Origin: Alphaproteobacteria bacterium bin98
GTDB taxonomy: Bacteria > Pseudomonadota > Alphaproteobacteria > Bin98
Assembly (NCBI GenBank): GCA_002238905.1
Contig: MPNG01000004.1
Coordinates: forward strand, 8,461 to 72,460
DNA length: 64,000 bases
Reading direction: 5' to 3'
The notes under the pieces were generated by a model. The model was not told the DNA's origin. It saw nothing but the letters and a program-made list of their open reading frames with translations, and ran no database searches. Position 1 is the first letter of the stretch. Every line of letters starts with the position of its first letter. The translations under genes were made by a program, and so were the position numbers. Shown here piece after piece: positions 11,356 through 51,139 of this stretch.

Positions 11356-11426
11356 GGCCGGATGGCAGAGTGGTTATGCAGAGGATTGCAAATCCTTGTA
11401 TGTCGGTTCGATTCCGGCTCCGGCCT
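11356..11426 (+). tRNA. tRNA-Cys (GCA); 3' CCA not encoded
   Basis: cloverleaf: acceptor ggccgga/tccggcc, anticodon loop ttGCAaa, T-loop ttcgatt. Confidence 0.85.
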
Positions 11427-11428
11427 GT

Positions 11429-11504
11429 TCCTCGGTAGCTCAGTTGGTAGAGCAGGTGATTGTTACTCACTTGGTCGGCGGTTCGAGTCCGTCCCGAGGA
11501 GCCA
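11429..11504 (+). tRNA. tRNA-Asn (GTT), CCA encoded
   Basis: acceptor tcctcgg/ccgagga, anticodon loop ttGTTac, GTTCGAGTC T-arm. Confidence 0.85.
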
Positions 11505-39193: not shown

Positions 39194-40276
39194 ATGTTGG
39201 GAGGCTTTCGTACAGCGCTGCTAGTAGCGCTCTTTATATCATTATTCTGTAACGCAGCGCCGATGCGTGTGGGCGTTATGACATCATCACCACCTTTTGC
39301 ATGGCAAAAGGAAGATGGGTCGTTTCATGGTGCCAGTTTAGACTTATGGTCGGCTATTGCAGAAAAAAATAATTATCGTTTTGAATATGTTTCTGCTGGT
39401 CAAAATATTCAGCAGGCATTAAATCTTTTGGATGCCAAAGAAATAGATGTTCTTGTGGGTCCTATTTCTGTGACAGAGGCACGTTACAAAAAGTATGACT
39501 TCACTCGTCCTTACTTTTTAAATCACTTATCTTTGATTGTTCCTGCAGCAGAAGCAGGAAGTCGTTGGCGTATGCTTGCAAGCGCTTTGTGGGAACCATT
39601 ATCCTTTGTGCTTCCTATTTTGCTTTGTGTGATTCTTGTGATGACTTGTTTCTTTTGTTTCTTTGATAGTGCTGCCAATCGTAAGAAACAACACAGCAAG
39701 CTACACTCCTTTTTTGATGCTTTTTGGGAAGTTGTTTTGATACTGATACAAGGTGAGATATTGCACGACACACGACACACTGGTAAGCGAATCTTGACAT
39801 TAATGTGGCTTATATCCTCTATTGGTCTCTTGTCGATTCTCATAGGAACCGTAACGTCATCTTTGACTGTTTTTGATGAAAAAGCTGAAAAAGCCTATCG
39901 TGTGCTACGCTCTGATTTAGAATCGCAAAAAATAGCTGTTGTGAAAGGCAGTGTGAGCGATCAAGAAGTTCTGCGAGTAGGGGCTGCGCCTGTGCGTGTT
40001 AAAACACGTATGGAAGCTGTGAAGCTTGTTCAAGAGAATGCCGTCTTTGGAATGGTGGATGACTTCTTGATTTTAAAATCTCTACGCTCAGAGAATTCAG
40101 GAATGCGCTCGACGCAACTTAATCTGAAAAATGATGAAATTGCCTTTGCGTTTCCAAAATCATCTCAGTACATTCAAGAGGTTAACAAAGCTATTCTCGC
40201 ACTGCAAGATACAGGAATGTCTGAAACTGTTTGTCGCAAGTACCTCGGCAAAGATGCAGTTTTGTGTTTGCTGTGA
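39194..40276 (+). CDS. ionotropic glutamate receptor-like ligand-gated channel (SBP_bac_3 S1 - M1 - pore loop - M2 - S2)
   Basis: periplasmic binding lobes split by two TM helices and a re-entrant segment FWEVVLILIQGE...RILTLMWLISSIGLLSILIGTVTSSLTV resembling iGluR pore/M3. Confidence 0.6.
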   Translation: MLGGFRTALLVALFISLFCNAAPMRVGVMTSSPPFAWQKEDGSFHGASLDLWSAIAEKNNYRFEYVSAGQNIQQALNLLDAKEIDVLVGPISVTEARYKKYDFTRPYFLNHLSLIVPAAEAGSRWRMLASALWEPLSFVLPILLCVILVMTCFFCFFDSAANRKKQHSKLHSFFDAFWEVVLILIQGEILHDTRHTGKRILTLMWLISSIGLLSILIGTVTSSLTVFDEKAEKAYRVLRSDLESQKIAVVKGSVSDQEVLRVGAAPVRVKTRMEAVKLVQENAVFGMVDDFLILKSLRSENSGMRSTQLNLKNDEIAFAFPKSSQYIQEVNKAILALQDTGMSETVCRKYLGKDAVLCLL

Positions 40277-40295: not shown

Positions 40296-40328
40296 GCTGT
40301 GGCGCTGAAGCGCCACAGCCTTTTTATT
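40296..40328 (+). terminator. rho-independent terminator
   Basis: perfect 10-bp stem gctgtggcgc/gcgccacagc, loop tgaa, followed by cttttta. Confidence 0.8.
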
Positions 40329-40489
40329 ACTCACTTGTTACTCCATATATGGGAGGTGTGTATTTAAGCAAGATAAGGCGTAAACCAATACCATCTTTAG
40401 TTAGATCTCTTTTAGCCACAACTTTTTCACTTCTACGATAGATCGTTCATTATGATGATGGTATTATGGATCATTATTAAGGAGTAAGA

Positions 40490-41698
40490 ATGAAGAGATT
40501 CATAGTATTAAGTATGTTTTTTACAAATCTATTGATTGGAAGTGAAGGCAGTATTGGAGCAGACGATAGAGAGACGTTGAATGGTGGTAAGCAGCGAACT
40601 GTTCTGCGAATTACTGTAAAGCAAAAAGTTTGTGGTGGGGTAGAAGTTGGTAATGACGTTGCAACGCGAGCTGTGGAGCAATCTGAACCTCCAATTTCTG
40701 TAACTCAACAAGTTTGTGATGCATTGGCAACAAAGGCTTGGGATACTGTATCTAAGGTGAGCAAAAATGATTCTCTACCTCCTGTAGTTTTGCAAGTTGT
40801 GCCTGATGGTTATTATTATGCTCAAGTTTTGAAAGGCGCTAAGGATGCAGGCATGGTGAAGTCAGTCATTCCTATCTCTGCAGAATTTTTTGATCCAGAA
40901 AACGCAATGGAGTTATACCATCAGAGGAAACGGGAAATCTGTCAAGATGAACCAGGAAACATCATTGTTTGTGATGCTGTTTTCGATACTGGCATGACGA
41001 TTGCAAAGATTTTGCTTGTATTGAAAAAGCAAAAACTGGACAGAAAATATCATCTTGCTTTTCTGTACCTTAAATCAAGTCTATGCGATGAAGAAGATAT
41101 TTATGCAGATGCACGCACTAGATTGGCAGAAGCAATGGCATCTGCTCAGACATGTAAACGCCCTTTTAATACACAAGTCGAGCAACACTTGAGTTGGATT
41201 AAAGACCATATCTTAAGCTTTTATGCAGCATCATGTCTAAGCAGCGGTGATATGCCAGGTAGGCTGGTGCTGCCTGCAGAGGACGGAAACCCTATAGATT
41301 CATCATGCCTAACAGATTTTGTGAGATCCATAACAAGTTCTGGCGCAGGTATGAGCAAATATAGTGTTTTGATTTGTTTTTCTTCTGAGATGAATGATTA
41401 TAAAGAAAATCAAGAATTGAGTAATCTATTGAACTACATGAGTGAGCATCCATTGCTTAAAGGCAGAGTGAGCTATGGCATTGGTTATCCTTCTAGTAAA
41501 CAAGGTGAAAAAGTTAAAGAGGTTTTTTTTGCACAAGATACAAGACCTAAAAACCGCGGTCGTGTATTGGGCATTGTTGCGCAAAAAGTGTTCGGTGATT
41601 ATACTGATTTTACAAAATATATCATTAGAAGTGAGGGGTTGAAAGATTTGTGTTACCCCAACCCAATTCCTTTGCTATATGGACAGTGTGATTGTTAA
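40490..41698 (+). CDS. secreted UPRT-like-fold family protein, member 2 (degenerate PRPP loop)
   Basis: SD aaggag; signal peptide; VVPDGYYY and IIVCDAVFDTGMT motifs; about 40% GC. Confidence 0.6.
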   Translation: MKRFIVLSMFFTNLLIGSEGSIGADDRETLNGGKQRTVLRITVKQKVCGGVEVGNDVATRAVEQSEPPISVTQQVCDALATKAWDTVSKVSKNDSLPPVVLQVVPDGYYYAQVLKGAKDAGMVKSVIPISAEFFDPENAMELYHQRKREICQDEPGNIIVCDAVFDTGMTIAKILLVLKKQKLDRKYHLAFLYLKSSLCDEEDIYADARTRLAEAMASAQTCKRPFNTQVEQHLSWIKDHILSFYAASCLSSGDMPGRLVLPAEDGNPIDSSCLTDFVRSITSSGAGMSKYSVLICFSSEMNDYKENQELSNLLNYMSEHPLLKGRVSYGIGYPSSKQGEKVKEVFFAQDTRPKNRGRVLGIVAQKVFGDYTDFTKYIIRSEGLKDLCYPNPIPLLYGQCDC

Positions 41699-42103: not shown

Positions 42104-43357
42104 TTGAGAGACTCTTTGAAAGAGTGGGGGCGCTTGCAAGCTTTGGCACGTAAACCAGGTTACATGCTTGTTAAAAAAAATAGAAATGGCGTTTTTGTGA
42201 AAGAGAATGCTGACTCCGATCAAACGCTATTTGTGTGCAAAGATGGAGAGCAAATAGTGAAGCGTTGTGGTATCTGTGCAGGAGTCAGAAAGGTTCTTCC
42301 CACTATTGCCGTAAGTCAAAAAGTTTCTGATGAATTGGCCGCAGAAGCTTTGCGTTATACTTTAGGTTCAGTAGAGAAAAATTGTGAGCCCTCTCCTGTA
42401 ATTTTCCAAGTGGTGCCTGATGGTTATTATTATGGTGAAGCGTTGAAAGATGCTAAGATTTCAAGTATGGCGATACCAGTCATTGCAGCCTCTGAATCTG
42501 GTCTTGAGAGATTTGCAAATCACCCAGGAAACATCATTATCTGTGATTCTATTTTAGATACTGGAGAGAAGTGTGCAAAGATTTTGCTTGTATTGAGAAA
42601 TCAACAACCGCACAGAAAATACTATCTTGCTTTTCAGTACTTAAAAGAAGATTATTATGCACTCAATGTGACTGCATCTGCACGCCATACCCCTATAAAT
42701 GCTCGATGGATATTGGCAACACGAATGGCACATATTGAGCTTCATATGCCAGAGGAGGCACAAATAAAGAAAAATTATTCTTGGATTCAAGAACATATCT
42801 TAAGCTTTTATGCAGCATCATGTCCAAGCAGGTGTGATATGTCCGGTTGGTTGATCCTTCCTGGAGAAGGCGGAAACCCTATAGAATCTCAATGCTCACT
42901 ATCTCTGATAGAGCACCTAAAACATGTAACCCATAATAGGCACTGTTATGTTTGTTTTTCTTCTGATGCGAGTGACTATGAAGCAAATCAAGTATTGCTA
43001 AAGTTATTGAACTACATGAGTGAGATTGCATGCTTTAAAAGCAGAGTGAGCTATGGCATTTGTGACTATCCTGCTGAGCATGAATCTGGAAAAATGGAAG
43101 AGGTTTTTGTACAAGATACAACACCTGCAAACCGTGATAATGTATATGGCTTCACTATGCAATTATTACAAGATCATCAGGATCATGTTTTTAGCGATTA
43201 TTGCATTGGATTGCCAGCGTTGTGTGACCAAATCCCTTATCCAACAAACCCAGTGCCTTTGGGACCTGCAGAGTGTATGAAAGTTCACAAGCCAAGAGCT
43301 TTAAATGTTATCGCAAAATATTTAATAAAATCGCAAAGATCACTCTTTTTTCTTTGA
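42104..43357 (+). CDS. UPRT-like-fold family protein, member 3; TTG start, no signal peptide in frame (possible pseudogene or leaderless variant)
   Basis: about 55% aa identity to member 2 (NIIICDSILDTGEK, SWIQEHILSFYAASC, LLNYMSE); upstream signal-peptide remnant is in another frame. Confidence 0.5.
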   Translation: MRDSLKEWGRLQALARKPGYMLVKKNRNGVFVKENADSDQTLFVCKDGEQIVKRCGICAGVRKVLPTIAVSQKVSDELAAEALRYTLGSVEKNCEPSPVIFQVVPDGYYYGEALKDAKISSMAIPVIAASESGLERFANHPGNIIICDSILDTGEKCAKILLVLRNQQPHRKYYLAFQYLKEDYYALNVTASARHTPINARWILATRMAHIELHMPEEAQIKKNYSWIQEHILSFYAASCPSRCDMSGWLILPGEGGNPIESQCSLSLIEHLKHVTHNRHCYVCFSSDASDYEANQVLLKLLNYMSEIACFKSRVSYGICDYPAEHESGKMEEVFVQDTTPANRDNVYGFTMQLLQDHQDHVFSDYCIGLPALCDQIPYPTNPVPLGPAECMKVHKPRALNVIAKYLIKSQRSLFFL

Positions 43358-43449: not shown

Positions 43450-45057
43450 ATGTTGACGCCAAAGTGTATTTTGCTAATGTTTTTAGCAATTTCAAATATT
43501 CAAAGTGAAAACATCGGGGCTAAAGAGCCTCTTTTTTTTAATAAAACACCATCAAGAGAAGTATCGTACATAAGGACACCGCACTATCACACTTCTGATC
43601 CAGATCAAGTCCAACAAAGTGCACCTGTCTCTTTTGATCATATGACAAAAATGCTTGGACCTATTGATAGAGGTGCGCAGTTATTTTGGTTTAAGCATGA
43701 TGATAAGGATCAATATACGCTTATGCTCGCGCCTTCTGAGCGCCTCACAAAACTTTTTGTGATAGTGGCATTGGCTGAAAAATGTCAGCAGATTATAACA
43801 GAAGGTGGTGCGTGGGAAGATATAATGCTTGTTTTGCCAATGCGTGGTGGCACAATTGCAATGGATAAGGGTATGGATATCGACAGCCGTGATGAATGCA
43901 TTGCAGCTCTTACAGAGCTAGGTGTGAGTAAGGATATCCTAGACTTTCTTAAGGAAAATTTTGAACGCATTCGCCATCTTCCTATGTTGCCATTAACGAT
44001 ACAAAGTTTGGTAGGTCGTCAAGTTCAGCAGGATATGCGATTGGGAGATTTAAGCACTGTAACCGCTGAAAAACAACTTATTGTTTGTGACGATCTTGCG
44101 GATACGTTTAGTACGCAAGCGCGCACTATAATGTATATTCTTGATACTTTGCAGGCAAGAGGCGTTATTTTAGAGAAACCTATTGCGCTAGCAGTAGGAT
44201 GTGTGAAAAATGGGCGCCAAGAAGACGTTTCTTTAAAGTGTGGTGATGTACCTGTTAAACTTTTGCAAAAGAAACTGCGTGGCACTGTTGATGAAAGAAT
44301 TGATTTCTTCTTTAACAAAGCTATATGGGAAAATATGATGCAAAAGGATGCAGATTTTTTGAAAAAATTGAATGAAATCGCACAACCAGCAATGCGTCAG
44401 AAGTTAGCTGAAGAGTTTTATACAGCACACAAAAAAGCGATTGAAGATGCAGCGTATAATCTTTACGGATCTCATCTGGATCGTAGTGTAACAAAAGCTC
44501 TTGCTGTTAATACGTTTGTTGATCAAGGATGGACAACAAAAGATTGTGTGGACAATCTTTGGATTGCTTTGCATCAAGTAACGGTAAACTCTTACGCCAA
44601 AGGATCTATGCTGGATATTGTACAGGCCGACTTGTCACAGTATAATTTGGTATTGTTCCCTATGGCTTCTGATGGTAGACATGTGTATGATACAGGTGCT
44701 AATTATAGTAATGAAGCGGAGGAATGGGCTGATTCGATTGGTATGAAGTCTCCTATGCAGTGTCAGTCGCCGATTTATGTGCATGGAAAATCATTCATGC
44801 AAAACGTTAAGGGTAATTATCGGAAGGTGCTGGTTTATGTACCAAAGAAGCTACCGGCATACCTATCCTTTACAAGCGAAGACATGAAGAAGGCTCTTGC
44901 AACAGAAATGCCACACGCAACCATTAGGGTGTATGATCAAGATGCTCAACGTCCACAACCGCTTCCTGCAGGGGGAGCAAAAATTCTTGAGGAAACAAAA
45001 GTGATTACTCAAGAAGAATTGAAAAAGTGTGTGCAGTTAACTGCTCAAAATCACTAA
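43450..45057 (+). CDS. secreted UPRT-like-fold family protein, member 4 (degenerate PRPP loop, long C-terminal domain)
   Basis: signal peptide MLTPKCILLMFLAISNIQS; LVLPMRGGTIAM; LIVCDDLADTFST; about 35% GC. Confidence 0.6.
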   Translation: MLTPKCILLMFLAISNIQSENIGAKEPLFFNKTPSREVSYIRTPHYHTSDPDQVQQSAPVSFDHMTKMLGPIDRGAQLFWFKHDDKDQYTLMLAPSERLTKLFVIVALAEKCQQIITEGGAWEDIMLVLPMRGGTIAMDKGMDIDSRDECIAALTELGVSKDILDFLKENFERIRHLPMLPLTIQSLVGRQVQQDMRLGDLSTVTAEKQLIVCDDLADTFSTQARTIMYILDTLQARGVILEKPIALAVGCVKNGRQEDVSLKCGDVPVKLLQKKLRGTVDERIDFFFNKAIWENMMQKDADFLKKLNEIAQPAMRQKLAEEFYTAHKKAIEDAAYNLYGSHLDRSVTKALAVNTFVDQGWTTKDCVDNLWIALHQVTVNSYAKGSMLDIVQADLSQYNLVLFPMASDGRHVYDTGANYSNEAEEWADSIGMKSPMQCQSPIYVHGKSFMQNVKGNYRKVLVYVPKKLPAYLSFTSEDMKKALATEMPHATIRVYDQDAQRPQPLPAGGAKILEETKVITQEELKKCVQLTAQNH

Positions 45058-50958: not shown

Positions 50959-51035
50959 GGCGGAGTAGCTCAGTTGGTTAGAGCGGTGGAATCATAATCC
51001 ATGTGTCGGGGGTTCGAATCCCTCCTCCGCTACCA
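50959..51035 (+). tRNA. tRNA-Met (CAT), elongator-type
   Basis: GTAGCTCAGTTGGTTAGAGC D-arm, anticodon loop tCATaa, GGTTCGAATCC, CCA encoded; no initiator 3xGC. Confidence 0.85.
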
Positions 51036-51047
51036 TTCCTTGATTTA

Positions 51048-51139
51048 GGAGGGGTGGCCGAGCGGTTGAAGGCGCACGCCTGGAACGCGTGTATATGTTG
51101 CAAGATGTATCAAGGGTTCGAATCCCTTTCCCTCCGCCA
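51048..51139 (+). tRNA. tRNA-Ser (GGA)
   Basis: GGCCGAGCGGTTGAAGG D-arm, anticodon ctGGAac, long variable arm, CCA encoded. Confidence 0.85.

What the first reader, a model, noticed from the sequence alone, without database searches (positions are those of the whole stretch)
39194..40276. Prokaryotic ionotropic glutamate receptor-like channel
A periplasmic SBP_bac_3-like lobe S1 (about aa 22-120) is followed by TM helix M1 (LSFVLPILLCVILVMTCFFCFF). Next comes a re-entrant segment FFDAFWEVVLILIQGE, reminiscent of the eukaryotic iGluR GAFMQQG pore loop. Then TM helix M2/M3 (RILTLMWLISSIGLLSILIGTVTSSLTV, compare iGluR SYTANLAAFLTV) and a second binding lobe S2. It lacks the K-channel TVGYG filter of GluR0. 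A clean terminator follows. Such channels are rare in bacteria and unexpected beside housekeeping genes.
Basis: partly seen in the sequence, partly recalled or inferred. Interest (0 to 1): 0.6.

Follow-up and report, generated by a model that had tools for sequence, protein, structure and literature searches.

The report
Bacterial glutamate-receptor-like channel, non-potassium pore
This gene encodes a bacterial relative of the glutamate-receptor ion channels of nerve cells: an amino-acid-binding clamshell with a small channel pore inserted into it. This kind of protein has been known in bacteria since 1999-2010, so this is an interesting but not new example.

Summary
A 10-bp-stem terminator follows at 40296-40319.

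- One SBP_bac_3 fold (E 5.5e-23) is split by an insertion of about 105 aa: outer helix, pore helix, loop, inner helix.
- The family profile aligns over 326 columns, membrane domain included, with TVGYG-bearing GluR0-like proteins (hhalign 100%, E 2.6e-60).
- The AlphaFold model's 50 best PDB hits are all AMPA, kainate or delta receptor LBD-TMD chains. The membrane part alone hits tetrameric P-loop channel pores.
- The ligand-anchoring Arg97 and Asp290 are conserved.
- TVGYG is absent. The filter is a conserved "ILIQGE".

- Such proteins are not very rare: 333 cluster representatives at E<1e-30.
- Filter-less prokaryotic iGluRs were already described (Ger et al. 2010, "Group 2").
- This clade is further from eukaryotic iGluRs than GluR0-like proteins are (Lig_chan 24.6 bits, below the 30.8 cut-off, against 56.9).

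The gene is inherited vertically in a small-genome alphaproteobacterial lineage, always 8-10 nt after a Bax1-I gene. It belongs to a large uncharacterised clade marked by a C-terminal Cys pair.

Verdict: new member of a known kind. Channel function is inferred, not shown.

The parts
39194..40276 (+). Complete gene for the iGluR-like protein. It is 360 aa and is deposited as NCBI MCY4414068.1, 'transporter substrate-binding domain-containing protein'.
39194..39259 (+). N-terminal signal peptide or anchor (aa 1-22). It contains Cys19, which is invariant within the clade and sits in a non-canonical lipobox-like position.
   Evidence: Hydropathy; alignment A1; motif scan. Cleavage was not tested.
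39260..39559 (+). S1, the first half of the periplasmic amino-acid-binding clamshell (aa 23-122). It carries the GPISVTEAR motif with Thr94 and Arg97.
39563..39676 (+). Pre-M1 and M1 outer transmembrane helix (aa 124-161). The hydrophobic core is aa 136-157 (nt 39599-39664).
   Evidence: AF2 helix 124-161; hydropathy
39698..39751 (+). Re-entrant pore helix (aa 169-186). Trp178 is conserved in at least 90% of the wider clade.
   Evidence: AF2 helix 169-186
39752..39778 (+). Filter loop GEILHDTRH (aa 187-195). The conserved Q186-G187-E188 motif (nt 39749-39757) replaces TVGYG.
39779..39874 (+). M3 inner, pore-lining helix (aa 196-227). It contains IGTVTSSLTV in place of the eukaryotic SYTANLAAFLTV.
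   Evidence: AF2 helix 196-235
39875..40249 (+). S2, the second half of the clamshell (aa 228-352). Gly252-Ser253 and Asp289-Asp290 are conserved.
40232..40267 (+). C-terminal Cys pair, C347-x10-C358. The protein ends two residues after the second Cys. This is the signature of the wider clade and is presumed to form a periplasmic disulfide.
   Evidence: Invariant in A1 and A4; present in 111 of 148 relatives and in 0 of 26 with a K+ filter
40296..40329 (+). Intrinsic terminator: 10-bp stem, 4-nt loop, T-rich tail.
38463..39185 (+). Upstream Bax1-I (TMBIM/BI-1/YccA family) membrane-protein gene. Its stop codon lies 8 nt before the iGluR-like start, so it is a probable operon partner.
   Evidence: Pfam E 8.7e-58; the same 8-10 nt spacing in L005, L009, L010 and L011

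Best explanation
The gene encodes one subunit of a GluR0-type prokaryotic ionotropic-glutamate-receptor homologue, that is, an amino-acid-gated P-loop channel of the inner membrane.

Architecture (shown by sequence, profile and predicted fold). A signal sequence exports S1. S1 and S2 together form one periplasmic class-3 solute-binding clamshell. Between them lies a pore module in the inverted iGluR orientation: M1 (out to in), a pore helix and filter loop that re-enter from the cytoplasm, and M3 (in to out). There is no amino-terminal domain and no M4. The protein ends in a short tail with a Cys pair.

Mechanism (inferred from homology with GluR0, iGluRs and K+ channels). Four subunits form the pore. 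An alpha-amino acid is held by Arg97 (carboxylate) and Asp290 (amino group). Closure of the clamshell pulls on the S1-M1 and M3-S2 linkers and opens the M3 gate.

Selectivity (inferred). TVGYG is replaced by a conserved ILIQGE with acidic Glu188 and Asp192. The pore is therefore probably cation-conducting but not K+-selective.

Physiological role (the most speculative step). The gene is inherited vertically and is probably co-transcribed with a Bax1-I membrane protein, in a deep, uncultured alphaproteobacterial lineage with a genome of about 1.5 Mb. It probably couples external amino-acid availability to membrane potential or cation homeostasis.
For: Domain content. SBP_bac_3 (E 5.5e-23) matches one domain spanning aa 25-352. 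Lig_chan (E 2.4e-5) covers aa 143-230, and Lig_chan-Glu_bd (E 1.2e-4) covers aa 30-116.

Solved relatives. phmmer hits GluR0 S1S2 (Slr1257) at 1e-15 and the Nostoc iGluR homologue 2pyy at 3.8e-9. GLR3.4 aligns over aa 21-352, and GluN1 over aa 81-346.

Profile comparison. The family profile against 20 TVGYG-type bacterial iGluRs gives probability 100%, E 2.6e-60, over 326 columns including M1, P and M3. Arg97 and Asp290 fall on columns that are invariant in that group.

Predicted structure. AF2 (pLDDT 80) predicts helices 124-161, 169-186 and 196-235. The top 50 Foldseek PDB hits are all AMPA, kainate or delta receptor LBD-TMD chains, at E about 1e-16. The TMD-only model (pLDDT 78) hits only tetrameric P-loop pore domains, with TM-score 0.52-0.65 normalised to the query.

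Constraint on the pore. The filter loop and M3 are the most conserved regions (0.79 and 0.81, against 0.70-0.71 for S1 and S2). The charge distribution fits a loop re-entering from the cytoplasm.

No other output. The cytoplasmic parts are only two loops of about 10 aa each.

Functional gene. Intact orthologues at 45-69% identity keep the same gene order.

Precedent. GluR0 is a glutamate-gated channel with this inverted topology (PMC13099474), and filter-less 'Group 2' homologues have been described (PMC2950845).
Against: - No member of this clade, nor any filter-less prokaryotic iGluR that I could find, has been shown to conduct ions.
- Lig_chan scores 24.6 bits, below Pfam's gathering score of 30.8.
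- The TMD-only sequence profile reaches only E 0.015 against GluA2, and the TMD-only fold matches have E 0.15-1.
- Whole-chain TM-scores to iGluR structures are low (0.32-0.39). This probably reflects the lobe-to-membrane orientation in a monomer model, which has pTM 0.46.
- Filter sequences across the wider clade vary widely. That could mean relaxed constraint on conduction.
- Tetramerisation, ligand identity, ion selectivity and signal-peptide cleavage were not tested.
Confidence: 0.72

Rival explanations
1. A non-conducting derivative. The pore module has lost its filter and now serves only as a membrane anchor or oligomerisation scaffold. The protein would act as a periplasmic amino-acid sensor, or as a regulatory partner of the adjacent Bax1-I protein. 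Non-conducting iGluR relatives such as the delta receptors are a precedent for this.
For: - TVGYG is absent and the Lig_chan score is below threshold.
- Filter sequences are extremely diverse across the 113-member clade.
- The gene is tightly linked to Bax1-I within this lineage.
- No functional data exist for any filter-less bacterial homologue.
Against: - Within the lineage, the filter loop and M3 are more conserved than the ligand-binding lobes.
- The pore-helix Trp178 is conserved in at least 90% of the wider clade.
- There is no cytoplasmic domain that could pass on a signal.
- The Bax1-I adjacency is absent from clade members outside the lineage.
Confidence: 0.15
2. A K+-selective GluR0 orthologue: a glutamate-gated potassium channel.
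For: It has the same architecture as TVGYG-type proteins and is strongly homologous to them. GluR0 is the only prokaryotic member that has been characterised (PMC13099474).
Against: - There is no TVGYG or GYG motif. hhalign places a 3-residue gap where VGY would lie.
- Ion_trans_2 scores 9.2 bits (E 1.5), against 61 bits for a TVGYG protein.
- In the NJ tree the protein lies in a 113-member clade that contains no K+-filter sequence.
Confidence: 0.04
3. A membrane-tethered substrate-binding protein that delivers amino acids to an ABC or other transporter. This is what the public annotation, 'transporter substrate-binding domain-containing protein', implies.
For: There is a strong SBP_bac_3 match, and weak sub-threshold NCBIfam hits to GlnH, the cystine SBP and ArgT. 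The NCBI name is reported.
Against: - The binding fold is interrupted by a P-loop pore module, not preceded by an anchor.
- All NCBIfam SBP scores are far below their cut-offs (61 against 256 bits and similar).
- No ABC permease or ATPase gene lies within 6 kb in any of the five syntenic loci.
- The window holds no second SBP-like ORF.
Confidence: 0.05
4. A recent horizontal acquisition of a eukaryotic iGluR or GLR fragment from a host.
For: The lineage has a small genome, so it may be host-associated. A gapless alignment places Q186 on the GluA2 Q/R site.
Against: - The protein is nested among more than 100 bacterial cluster representatives.
- It is further from the Lig_chan and Lig_chan-Glu_bd models than GluR0-like proteins are.
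- It has no amino-terminal domain and no M4.
- Its GC content (0.41) matches the surrounding window.
- Its divergence tracks that of ValRS in the same genomes.
Confidence: 0.02

Closest known systems
GluR0 (Synechocystis Slr1257) and other TVGYG-type prokaryotic iGluRs ('Group 1' of Ger et al. 2010)
   Same: - Same signal-S1-M1-P-M3-S2 architecture, of about 350-400 aa, with no amino-terminal domain and no M4.
- Homologous over the full length (hhalign 100%, E 2.6e-60). The S1 lobe hits the GluR0 crystal construct at 1e-15.
- The ligand-anchoring Arg (S1) and Asp (S2) are conserved.
   Different: - No K+ selectivity filter: ILIQGE in place of TTVGYGD.
- No Ion_trans_2 match.
- A C-terminal Cys pair that is absent from all 26 TVGYG relatives examined.
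- A separate superclade in the NJ tree.
'Group 2' prokaryotic iGluRs without a K+ filter (Ger et al. 2010, PMC2950845; Nostoc, Anabaena, Silicibacter, Magnetospirillum and others)
   Same: - Same architecture and no recognisable K+ filter.
- Proposed annotation 'putative glutamate-sensitive ion channel'.
- Members occur in Alphaproteobacteria.
- None has been characterised functionally.
   Different: - The eight Group 2 S2 ends visible in their Data S4 lack the Cys found at this family's position.
- In my tree, filter-less proteins without the Cys pair (for example P0013, P0014) group with the TVGYG proteins, not with this protein.
- I could not place the actual Group 2 sequences in the tree.
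Eukaryotic iGluRs and plant GLRs (AMPA, kainate, NMDA, delta, GLR3.4)
   Same: - Same LBD-TMD fold and the same inverted pore topology. The best PDB fold matches are AMPA, kainate and delta receptor chains.
- phmmer aligns aa 21-352 to GLR3.4.
- The pore-helix-to-M3 length equals that of GluA2, with Q186 on the Q/R-site Gln.
   Different: - No amino-terminal domain, no M4 and no C-terminal cytoplasmic domain.
- The SYTANLAAF gate motif is not conserved (SILIGTVTS).
- Lig_chan is below the gathering score, and lower than for GluR0-like proteins.
Periplasmic polar-amino-acid binding proteins (GlnH, HisJ, ArgT; PAAT-family ABC SBPs)
   Same: The S1 and S2 lobes share the class-3 SBP fold and its ligand-binding motifs.
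   Different: - The fold is interrupted by a pore module of about 105 aa.
- All equivalog scores are far below their cut-offs.
- There are no transporter genes nearby.

Membership tests
Prokaryotic iGluR (GluR0-type architecture; glutamate-gated ion channel superfamily) | One class-3 SBP fold split into S1 and S2 by an M1-P-loop-M3 insertion | tested here: met
   SBP_bac_3 gives a single match over aa 25-352 covering profile positions 2-131. AF2 predicts helices 124-161, 169-186 and 196-235 between the two lobes.
Prokaryotic iGluR (GluR0-type architecture; glutamate-gated ion channel superfamily) | Full-length homology, membrane domain included, to accepted GluR0-like proteins | tested here: met
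   hhalign of A1 against A3 gives probability 100%, E 2.6e-60, over 326 aligned columns.
Prokaryotic iGluR (GluR0-type architecture; glutamate-gated ion channel superfamily) | Pfam Lig_chan (PF00060) at or above the gathering score | tested here: not met
   The score is 24.6 bits against a cut-off of 30.8, E 2.4e-5, on aa 143-230. Ten of 11 clade members hit at E<=0.01, best 2.3e-7. The hit is significant but below the curated threshold.
Prokaryotic iGluR (GluR0-type architecture; glutamate-gated ion channel superfamily) | Conserved Arg in S1 (alpha-carboxylate) and Asp in S2 (alpha-amino), as stated in PMC2950845 | tested here: met
   R97 and D290 are invariant in A1. They align to the invariant R111 and D306 of the TVGYG group. 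R97 is conserved in at least 90% of A4.
Prokaryotic iGluR (GluR0-type architecture; glutamate-gated ion channel superfamily) | Pore module with the fold of a tetrameric P-loop cation channel | tested here: met
   For the TMD-only AF2 model, all 50 best PDB matches are P-loop pore domains, including Kv, KCNQ, MloK1, SthK, NaK, KcsA and GluA1/2. TM-scores normalised to the query are 0.52-0.65 for most, and probability reaches 0.97. E-values are only 0.15-1.1.
Prokaryotic iGluR (GluR0-type architecture; glutamate-gated ion channel superfamily) | Tetrameric assembly and ligand-gated ion conduction | not testable with these tools
   Only monomer prediction is available. This needs electrophysiology or flux assays, or a multimer model or cryo-EM.
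K+-selective GluR0 subfamily ('Group 1') | TXVGYG selectivity filter and an Ion_trans_2 match | tested here: not met
   The filter reads ILIQGE. Ion_trans_2 scores 9.2 bits, E 1.5. There is a 3-residue gap opposite VGY. Twenty of 20 TVGYG proteins hit Ion_trans_2.
Eukaryotic iGluR / GLR | Amino-terminal domain, a fourth transmembrane helix (M4) after S2, and the SYTANLAAF gate motif | tested here: not met
   S1 starts directly after the signal sequence, and the protein ends 8 residues after S2. M3 reads SILIGTVTSSLTV.
ABC-transporter polar-amino-acid binding protein | Uninterrupted SBP, an equivalog-level NCBIfam score, and adjacent permease and ATPase genes | tested here: not met
   The best NCBIfam score is 61 bits against a cut-off of 256. 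The fold is interrupted. No such neighbours appear in the gene calls of five syntenic loci.
Bacterial lipoprotein | Canonical lipobox [LVI][ASTVI][GAS]C at the end of the signal peptide | tested here: inconclusive
   Cys19 is invariant in the clade. The residue before it is F, V, T, L, M, S or Y, and P0001 itself does not match the motif.

The most novel reading that the evidence does not exclude
The protein represents a large, functionally untouched superclade of bacterial iGluR-type channels. In this sample it holds 113 of 148 full-length relatives. The clade has no K+ filter and carries an invariant C-terminal Cys pair, and it is absent from the eight Group 2 S2 ends visible in the 2010 survey's alignment. 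Its pores, here a conserved Q-G-E motif reminiscent of the G-E filter of CNG-type non-selective channels, might conduct Na+, Ca2+ or other cations instead of K+. That would give the first prokaryotic non-selective, amino-acid-gated iGluR. In this alphaproteobacterial lineage it would also work together with the co-transcribed TMBIM/Bax1-I protein. That echoes the eukaryotic naming of TMBIM3 as GRINA, 'NMDA-receptor-associated protein 1'.
Probability: 0.2. Interest if true: 0.6.

Novelty: new member of a known kind. Interest (0 to 1): 0.3.

Why it matters
Prokaryotic iGluR homologues are the reference point for how neurotransmitter-gated channels arose, by fusion of a binding protein with a K+-channel pore. 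Only the K+-selective GluR0 has been studied functionally.

This gene shows that a filter-less form is kept under purifying selection as a core, syntenic gene in a reduced alphaproteobacterial genome. It also shows that public annotation ('transporter substrate-binding domain-containing protein') hides its channel nature.

The wider Cys-pair clade offers many small (about 360 aa), ATD-less and M4-less candidates. They could be used to ask when and how iGluR pores lost K+ selectivity, and what bacteria use amino-acid-gated channels for.

The protein is not a eukaryote-like 'missing link'. It is further from eukaryotic iGluRs than GluR0 is.

Tried and rejected
1. K+ channel reading. Rejected: no TVGYG, Ion_trans_2 at E 1.5, and a gap opposite VGY.

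2. Closest bacterial relative of eukaryotic iGluRs. Rejected: Lig_chan and Lig_chan-Glu_bd score 24.6 and 22.6 bits here, against 56.9 and 64.9 bits for a TVGYG protein.

3. A general functional link to Bax1-I. The adjacency holds in five loci of the lineage. It is absent from the gammaproteobacterial relatives L007 and L008 and from the clade members L013 and L015. It may therefore be inherited gene order only.

4. Taxonomy of the wider clade.
- The genome-contig scan returned only 3 loci.
- The profile search with A4 was swamped by ordinary SBPs and added nothing.
- The ValRS search showed only that the organism is a deep, unnamed alphaproteobacterial lineage. I had first taken this neighbour for leuS; it is valS.

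6. TMD-only tests point the right way but are not significant on their own.

7. Lipoprotein reading of Cys19. The lipobox is non-canonical, so this stays inconclusive.

8. Second copy or partner SBP in the window. None found.

9. Ger et al. supplementary alignments. They are readable only in part. Eight of the 10 Group 2 S2 ends were seen; #42 and #3 were not checked.
Full report
**Observation**

The ORF 39194..40276 (+) exists and encodes 360 aa.

A Kyte-Doolittle scan finds three hydrophobic stretches:
- the N-terminal signal (1-22);
- M1 (peak 138-156);
- M3 (peak 200-218).

The segment between M1 and M3 is amphipathic. Its two flanks carry 4 and 3 Lys/Arg residues. This is what a loop re-entering from the cytoplasmic side should look like.

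The terminator is real: 40296-40319, a 10-bp stem with 8 G-C pairs and a 4-nt loop, followed by CTTTTTATTA. No TVGYG or GYG motif is present.

**What it is**

Pfam results:
- SBP_bac_3 at E 5.5e-23, as one match running from aa 25 to aa 352. This is one binding-protein fold with something inserted in it.
- Lig_chan (PF00060) on aa 143-230, at E 2.4e-5 and 24.6 bits. This is below the curated 30.8-bit threshold.
- Lig_chan-Glu_bd on aa 30-116, at 22.6 bits.

NCBIfam gives only far-sub-threshold hits to GlnH, cystine and ArgT binding proteins.

Against PDB sequences:
- the S1 lobe hits the crystallised ligand-binding core of GluR0 (Slr1257) at 1e-15;
- it hits the Nostoc iGluR homologue 2pyy at 3.8e-9;
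- full-length plant GLR3.4 (7lzh) aligns over aa 21-352;
- GluN1 aligns over aa 81-346.

A profile of the protein and its ten closest relatives (A1) was compared with a profile of twenty bacterial proteins that carry TVGYG (A3). The result is hhalign probability 100%, E 2.6e-60, over 326 columns, running straight through M1, the pore helix and M3.

In that alignment:
- Arg97 (motif SVTEAR) falls on an invariant Arg of the TVGYG group;
- Asp290 (VDDF) falls on an invariant Asp of that group.

These are the two residues that PMC2950845 names as anchoring the alpha-carboxylate and alpha-amino groups of the ligand.

**Predicted structure**

With alignment A1, AlphaFold2 gives mean pLDDT 80. It predicts helices 124-161 (pre-M1 and M1) and 169-186 (pore helix), a coil at 187-195, and helix 196-235 (M3). 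All of this lies between two alpha/beta lobes.

Foldseek against the PDB returns only iGluR LBD-TMD chains among the top 50: AMPA receptor chains (GluA1-4), one GluK2 chain and one delta-2 chain. E-values are about 1e-16 and the alignments span about 364-392 columns.

The TM-scores are low (0.32-0.39). I attribute this to the arbitrary lobe-to-membrane orientation of a monomer model (pTM 0.46), but it remains a weakness.

To test the pore module alone, I folded aa 118-240 (pLDDT 78, pTM 0.59). All 50 best PDB matches are pore domains of tetrameric P-loop channels: Kv4, KCNQ, MloK1, SthK, NaK, KcsA, AKT1, CNG, and also GluA1/A2. For most of them the TM-score normalised to the query is 0.52-0.65, and probability reaches 0.97. 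The E-values are only 0.15-1.1.

A TMD-only sequence profile reaches GluA2 at E 0.015 and KvAP at E 0.08. The GluA2 alignment is gapless from the pore helix to the end of M3, and it puts Gln186 on the Q/R-site glutamine.

**Relatives and conservation**

The protein is in NCBI as MCY4414068.1, 'MAG: transporter substrate-binding domain-containing protein [Alphaproteobacteria bacterium]'. Orthologues at 45-69% identity (P0002-P0010) share the filter region FWEV(V/I)(L/I/V)IL(I/V)Q(G/C)E.

Within this clade, mean majority-residue frequency by region is:

| Region | Conservation |
|---|---|
| Filter loop | 0.79 |
| M3 | 0.81 |
| S1 | 0.71 |
| S2 | 0.70 |

So the filter loop and M3 are the best-conserved regions. 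This argues against the pore module being an inert anchor.

An exhaustive profile search of 1.84 billion cluster representatives finds 14,656 proteins at E<=1e-3, mostly ordinary binding proteins, and 333 at E<1e-30. Of the 147 newly listed proteins, 131 are 300-480 aa; nearly all of these match the profile in one full-length stretch.

Among the 148 full-length sequences:
- 26 carry a K+ filter;
- 111 carry a C-terminal Cys pair, C-x8-13-C, with the protein ending two or three residues later;
- none carries both.

A neighbour-joining tree splits them into two groups:
- a 35-member group, made of all 26 TVGYG proteins plus nine filter-less proteins without the Cys pair;
- a 113-member group with no K+ filter, of which 107 match a stricter version of the Cys-pair pattern.

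The window protein is nested in the second group. Its sisters are P0018, P0019 and P0021, with filters ILIQGS, ILIQGA and VFIQGS. Cys347 and Cys358 are invariant in a 41-sequence sample of this group, and Arg97 and Trp178 are at least 90% conserved.

**Comparison with eukaryotic receptors**

| Pfam model | This protein | TVGYG protein P0015 |
|---|---|---|
| Lig_chan | 24.6 bits | 56.9 bits |
| Lig_chan-Glu_bd | 22.6 bits | 64.9 bits |

The best Lig_chan E-value is 2.3e-7 within the clade, against 4.6e-19 in the TVGYG group. By these two models the clade is further from eukaryotic iGluRs than GluR0-like proteins are.

There is no amino-terminal domain and no M4, and the SYTANLAAF gate motif is not conserved.

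**Genomic context**

The gene follows a Bax1-I (TMBIM/BI-1/YccA-type) membrane-protein gene (38463-39185; Pfam E 8.7e-58), with 8 nt between that gene's stop and this gene's start.

The order rpsD-argS-Bax1-I-iGluR, with 8-10 nt spacing, recurs in every lineage locus examined: L001-L004, L005 (a 1,465,401-bp chromosome), L009, L010 and L011.

The divergence of the protein (50% and 45% identity in L005 and L009) parallels that of the neighbouring ValRS (57% and 57%). Beyond the lineage, ValRS identity drops to 47% or less with assorted Alphaproteobacteria. The gene is therefore inherited vertically in a deep, uncultured, small-genome alphaproteobacterial lineage. It is not 'unexpected' among housekeeping genes.

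The Bax1-I adjacency is absent from clade members elsewhere:
- L008 follows nusA-infB and L007 follows a coiled-coil protein;
- L013 sits next to an SBP_bac_3 + Gly_transporter fusion and L015 sits next to MotA/MotB.

So the adjacency may reflect inherited gene order only. GC content (0.41) matches the surroundings. The window holds no second copy and no other SBP-like ORF.

**Mechanism**

Shown by sequence, profile or predicted fold:
- the S1-M1-P-M3-S2 architecture;
- homology to GluR0-type channels;
- the intact Arg/Asp ligand anchor;
- the absence of a K+ filter;
- strong conservation of the filter and M3;
- the absence of any cytoplasmic output domain.

Inferred:
- assembly as a tetramer;
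- binding of an alpha-amino acid in the periplasm;
- clamshell closure pulling M3 open;
- cation conduction that is not K+-selective, given the conserved Glu188 and Asp192 in the filter loop;
- a C347-C358 disulfide stapling the C-terminal tail;
- co-transcription with Bax1-I;
- a role linking external amino acids to membrane potential or ion balance.

GluR0 itself has recently been shown to have the inverted topology and to act in K+ and volume homeostasis (PMC13099474). In the held literature I found no functional study of any filter-less prokaryotic homologue.

**What is known, and novelty**

Ger et al. 2010 (PMC2950845) listed 22 prokaryotic iGluRs. Twelve have a K+ filter (Group 1). Ten do not (Group 2), and these include proteins from the alphaproteobacteria Silicibacter and Magnetospirillum. 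They proposed the annotation 'putative glutamate-sensitive ion channel'. The kind is therefore known.

The eight Group 2 S2 ends I could read in their Data S4 lack the Cys found at this family's position. The Cys-pair clade therefore seems not to have been sampled there. I could not place their sequences in my tree, so I do not claim a new subfamily as a finding.

Verdict: a genuine, correctly interpreted, under-annotated new member of a known kind. Interest is modest. The more novel reading is given separately with its probability: a large uncharacterised clade of non-K+, amino-acid-gated bacterial channels.

Noticed in passing
window 40490-41698, 42104-43357, 43450-45057 (all +); also 33557-35167 (+): An array of fast-diverging ORFs with no Pfam family sits between the iGluR-like gene and valS, and GC dips to 0.38-0.39 there. 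The 402-aa and 417-aa ORFs are 43% identical to each other. The 535-aa ORF is not detectably similar to them but matches the arrays in L010 and L011/L012 at 22-29% identity. Some carry a phosphoribosyltransferase-like 'IIVCDAVFDTG' motif (weak Pribosyltran hit, E 5e-4, on the 536-aa ORF) and signal-like N-termini. Related arrays occupy the same site in L010 and L011/L012 but are absent from L005 and L009. They may be secreted effectors of a host-associated bacterium.
   Followed up: partly
window 38463-39185 (+): A Bax1-I/TMBIM-family gene ends 8 nt before the iGluR-like start, and the pairing is conserved throughout the lineage. [quoted passage not shown] The mechanical ORF starts at GTG 38418, but gene callers use ATG 38463 (240 aa).
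   Followed up: partly
window 39248-39250 (Cys19 of the iGluR-like protein): A Cys inside the signal peptide is invariant in all 11 clade members, although the rest of the signal is barely conserved (0.25). The preceding residue is not the G/A/S of a canonical lipobox. It could be a lipidation site, an uncleaved anchor, or a partner for one of the C-terminal cysteines. This is unexplained.
   Followed up: partly
C-termini of 111 of 148 relatives (e.g. P0018-P0063); window 40232-40267: A C-x8-13-C motif with the protein ending two or three residues after the second Cys (CLL, CEF, CVL, CII and so on) marks a 113-member clade of filter-less bacterial iGluR-like proteins. It is absent from all TVGYG-type relatives.
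   Followed up: yes
L013 5141-6697: Next to a Cys-pair-clade member lies a 518-aa protein that combines SBP_bac_3 with a Gly_transporter (PF03458) membrane domain. This is another binding-protein/membrane-domain fusion.
   Followed up: no
L011, L012 (TARA_SAMEA600... scaffolds); L005/L006 (OZ253461.1, 1,465,401 bp): Relatives of the window organism occur in Tara metagenome assemblies and as a 1.47-Mb single-chromosome MAG. ValRS identity to any named alphaproteobacterium is 47% or less. This points to a deep, reduced-genome lineage of unknown lifestyle.
   Followed up: partly
window 11356-11504, 32513-32587, 50959-51139: Five tRNA genes (Cys, Asn, Gln, Met, Ser) are the only Rfam or ARAGORN RNA hits in the window. 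There is no rRNA for direct taxonomic placement.
   Followed up: no
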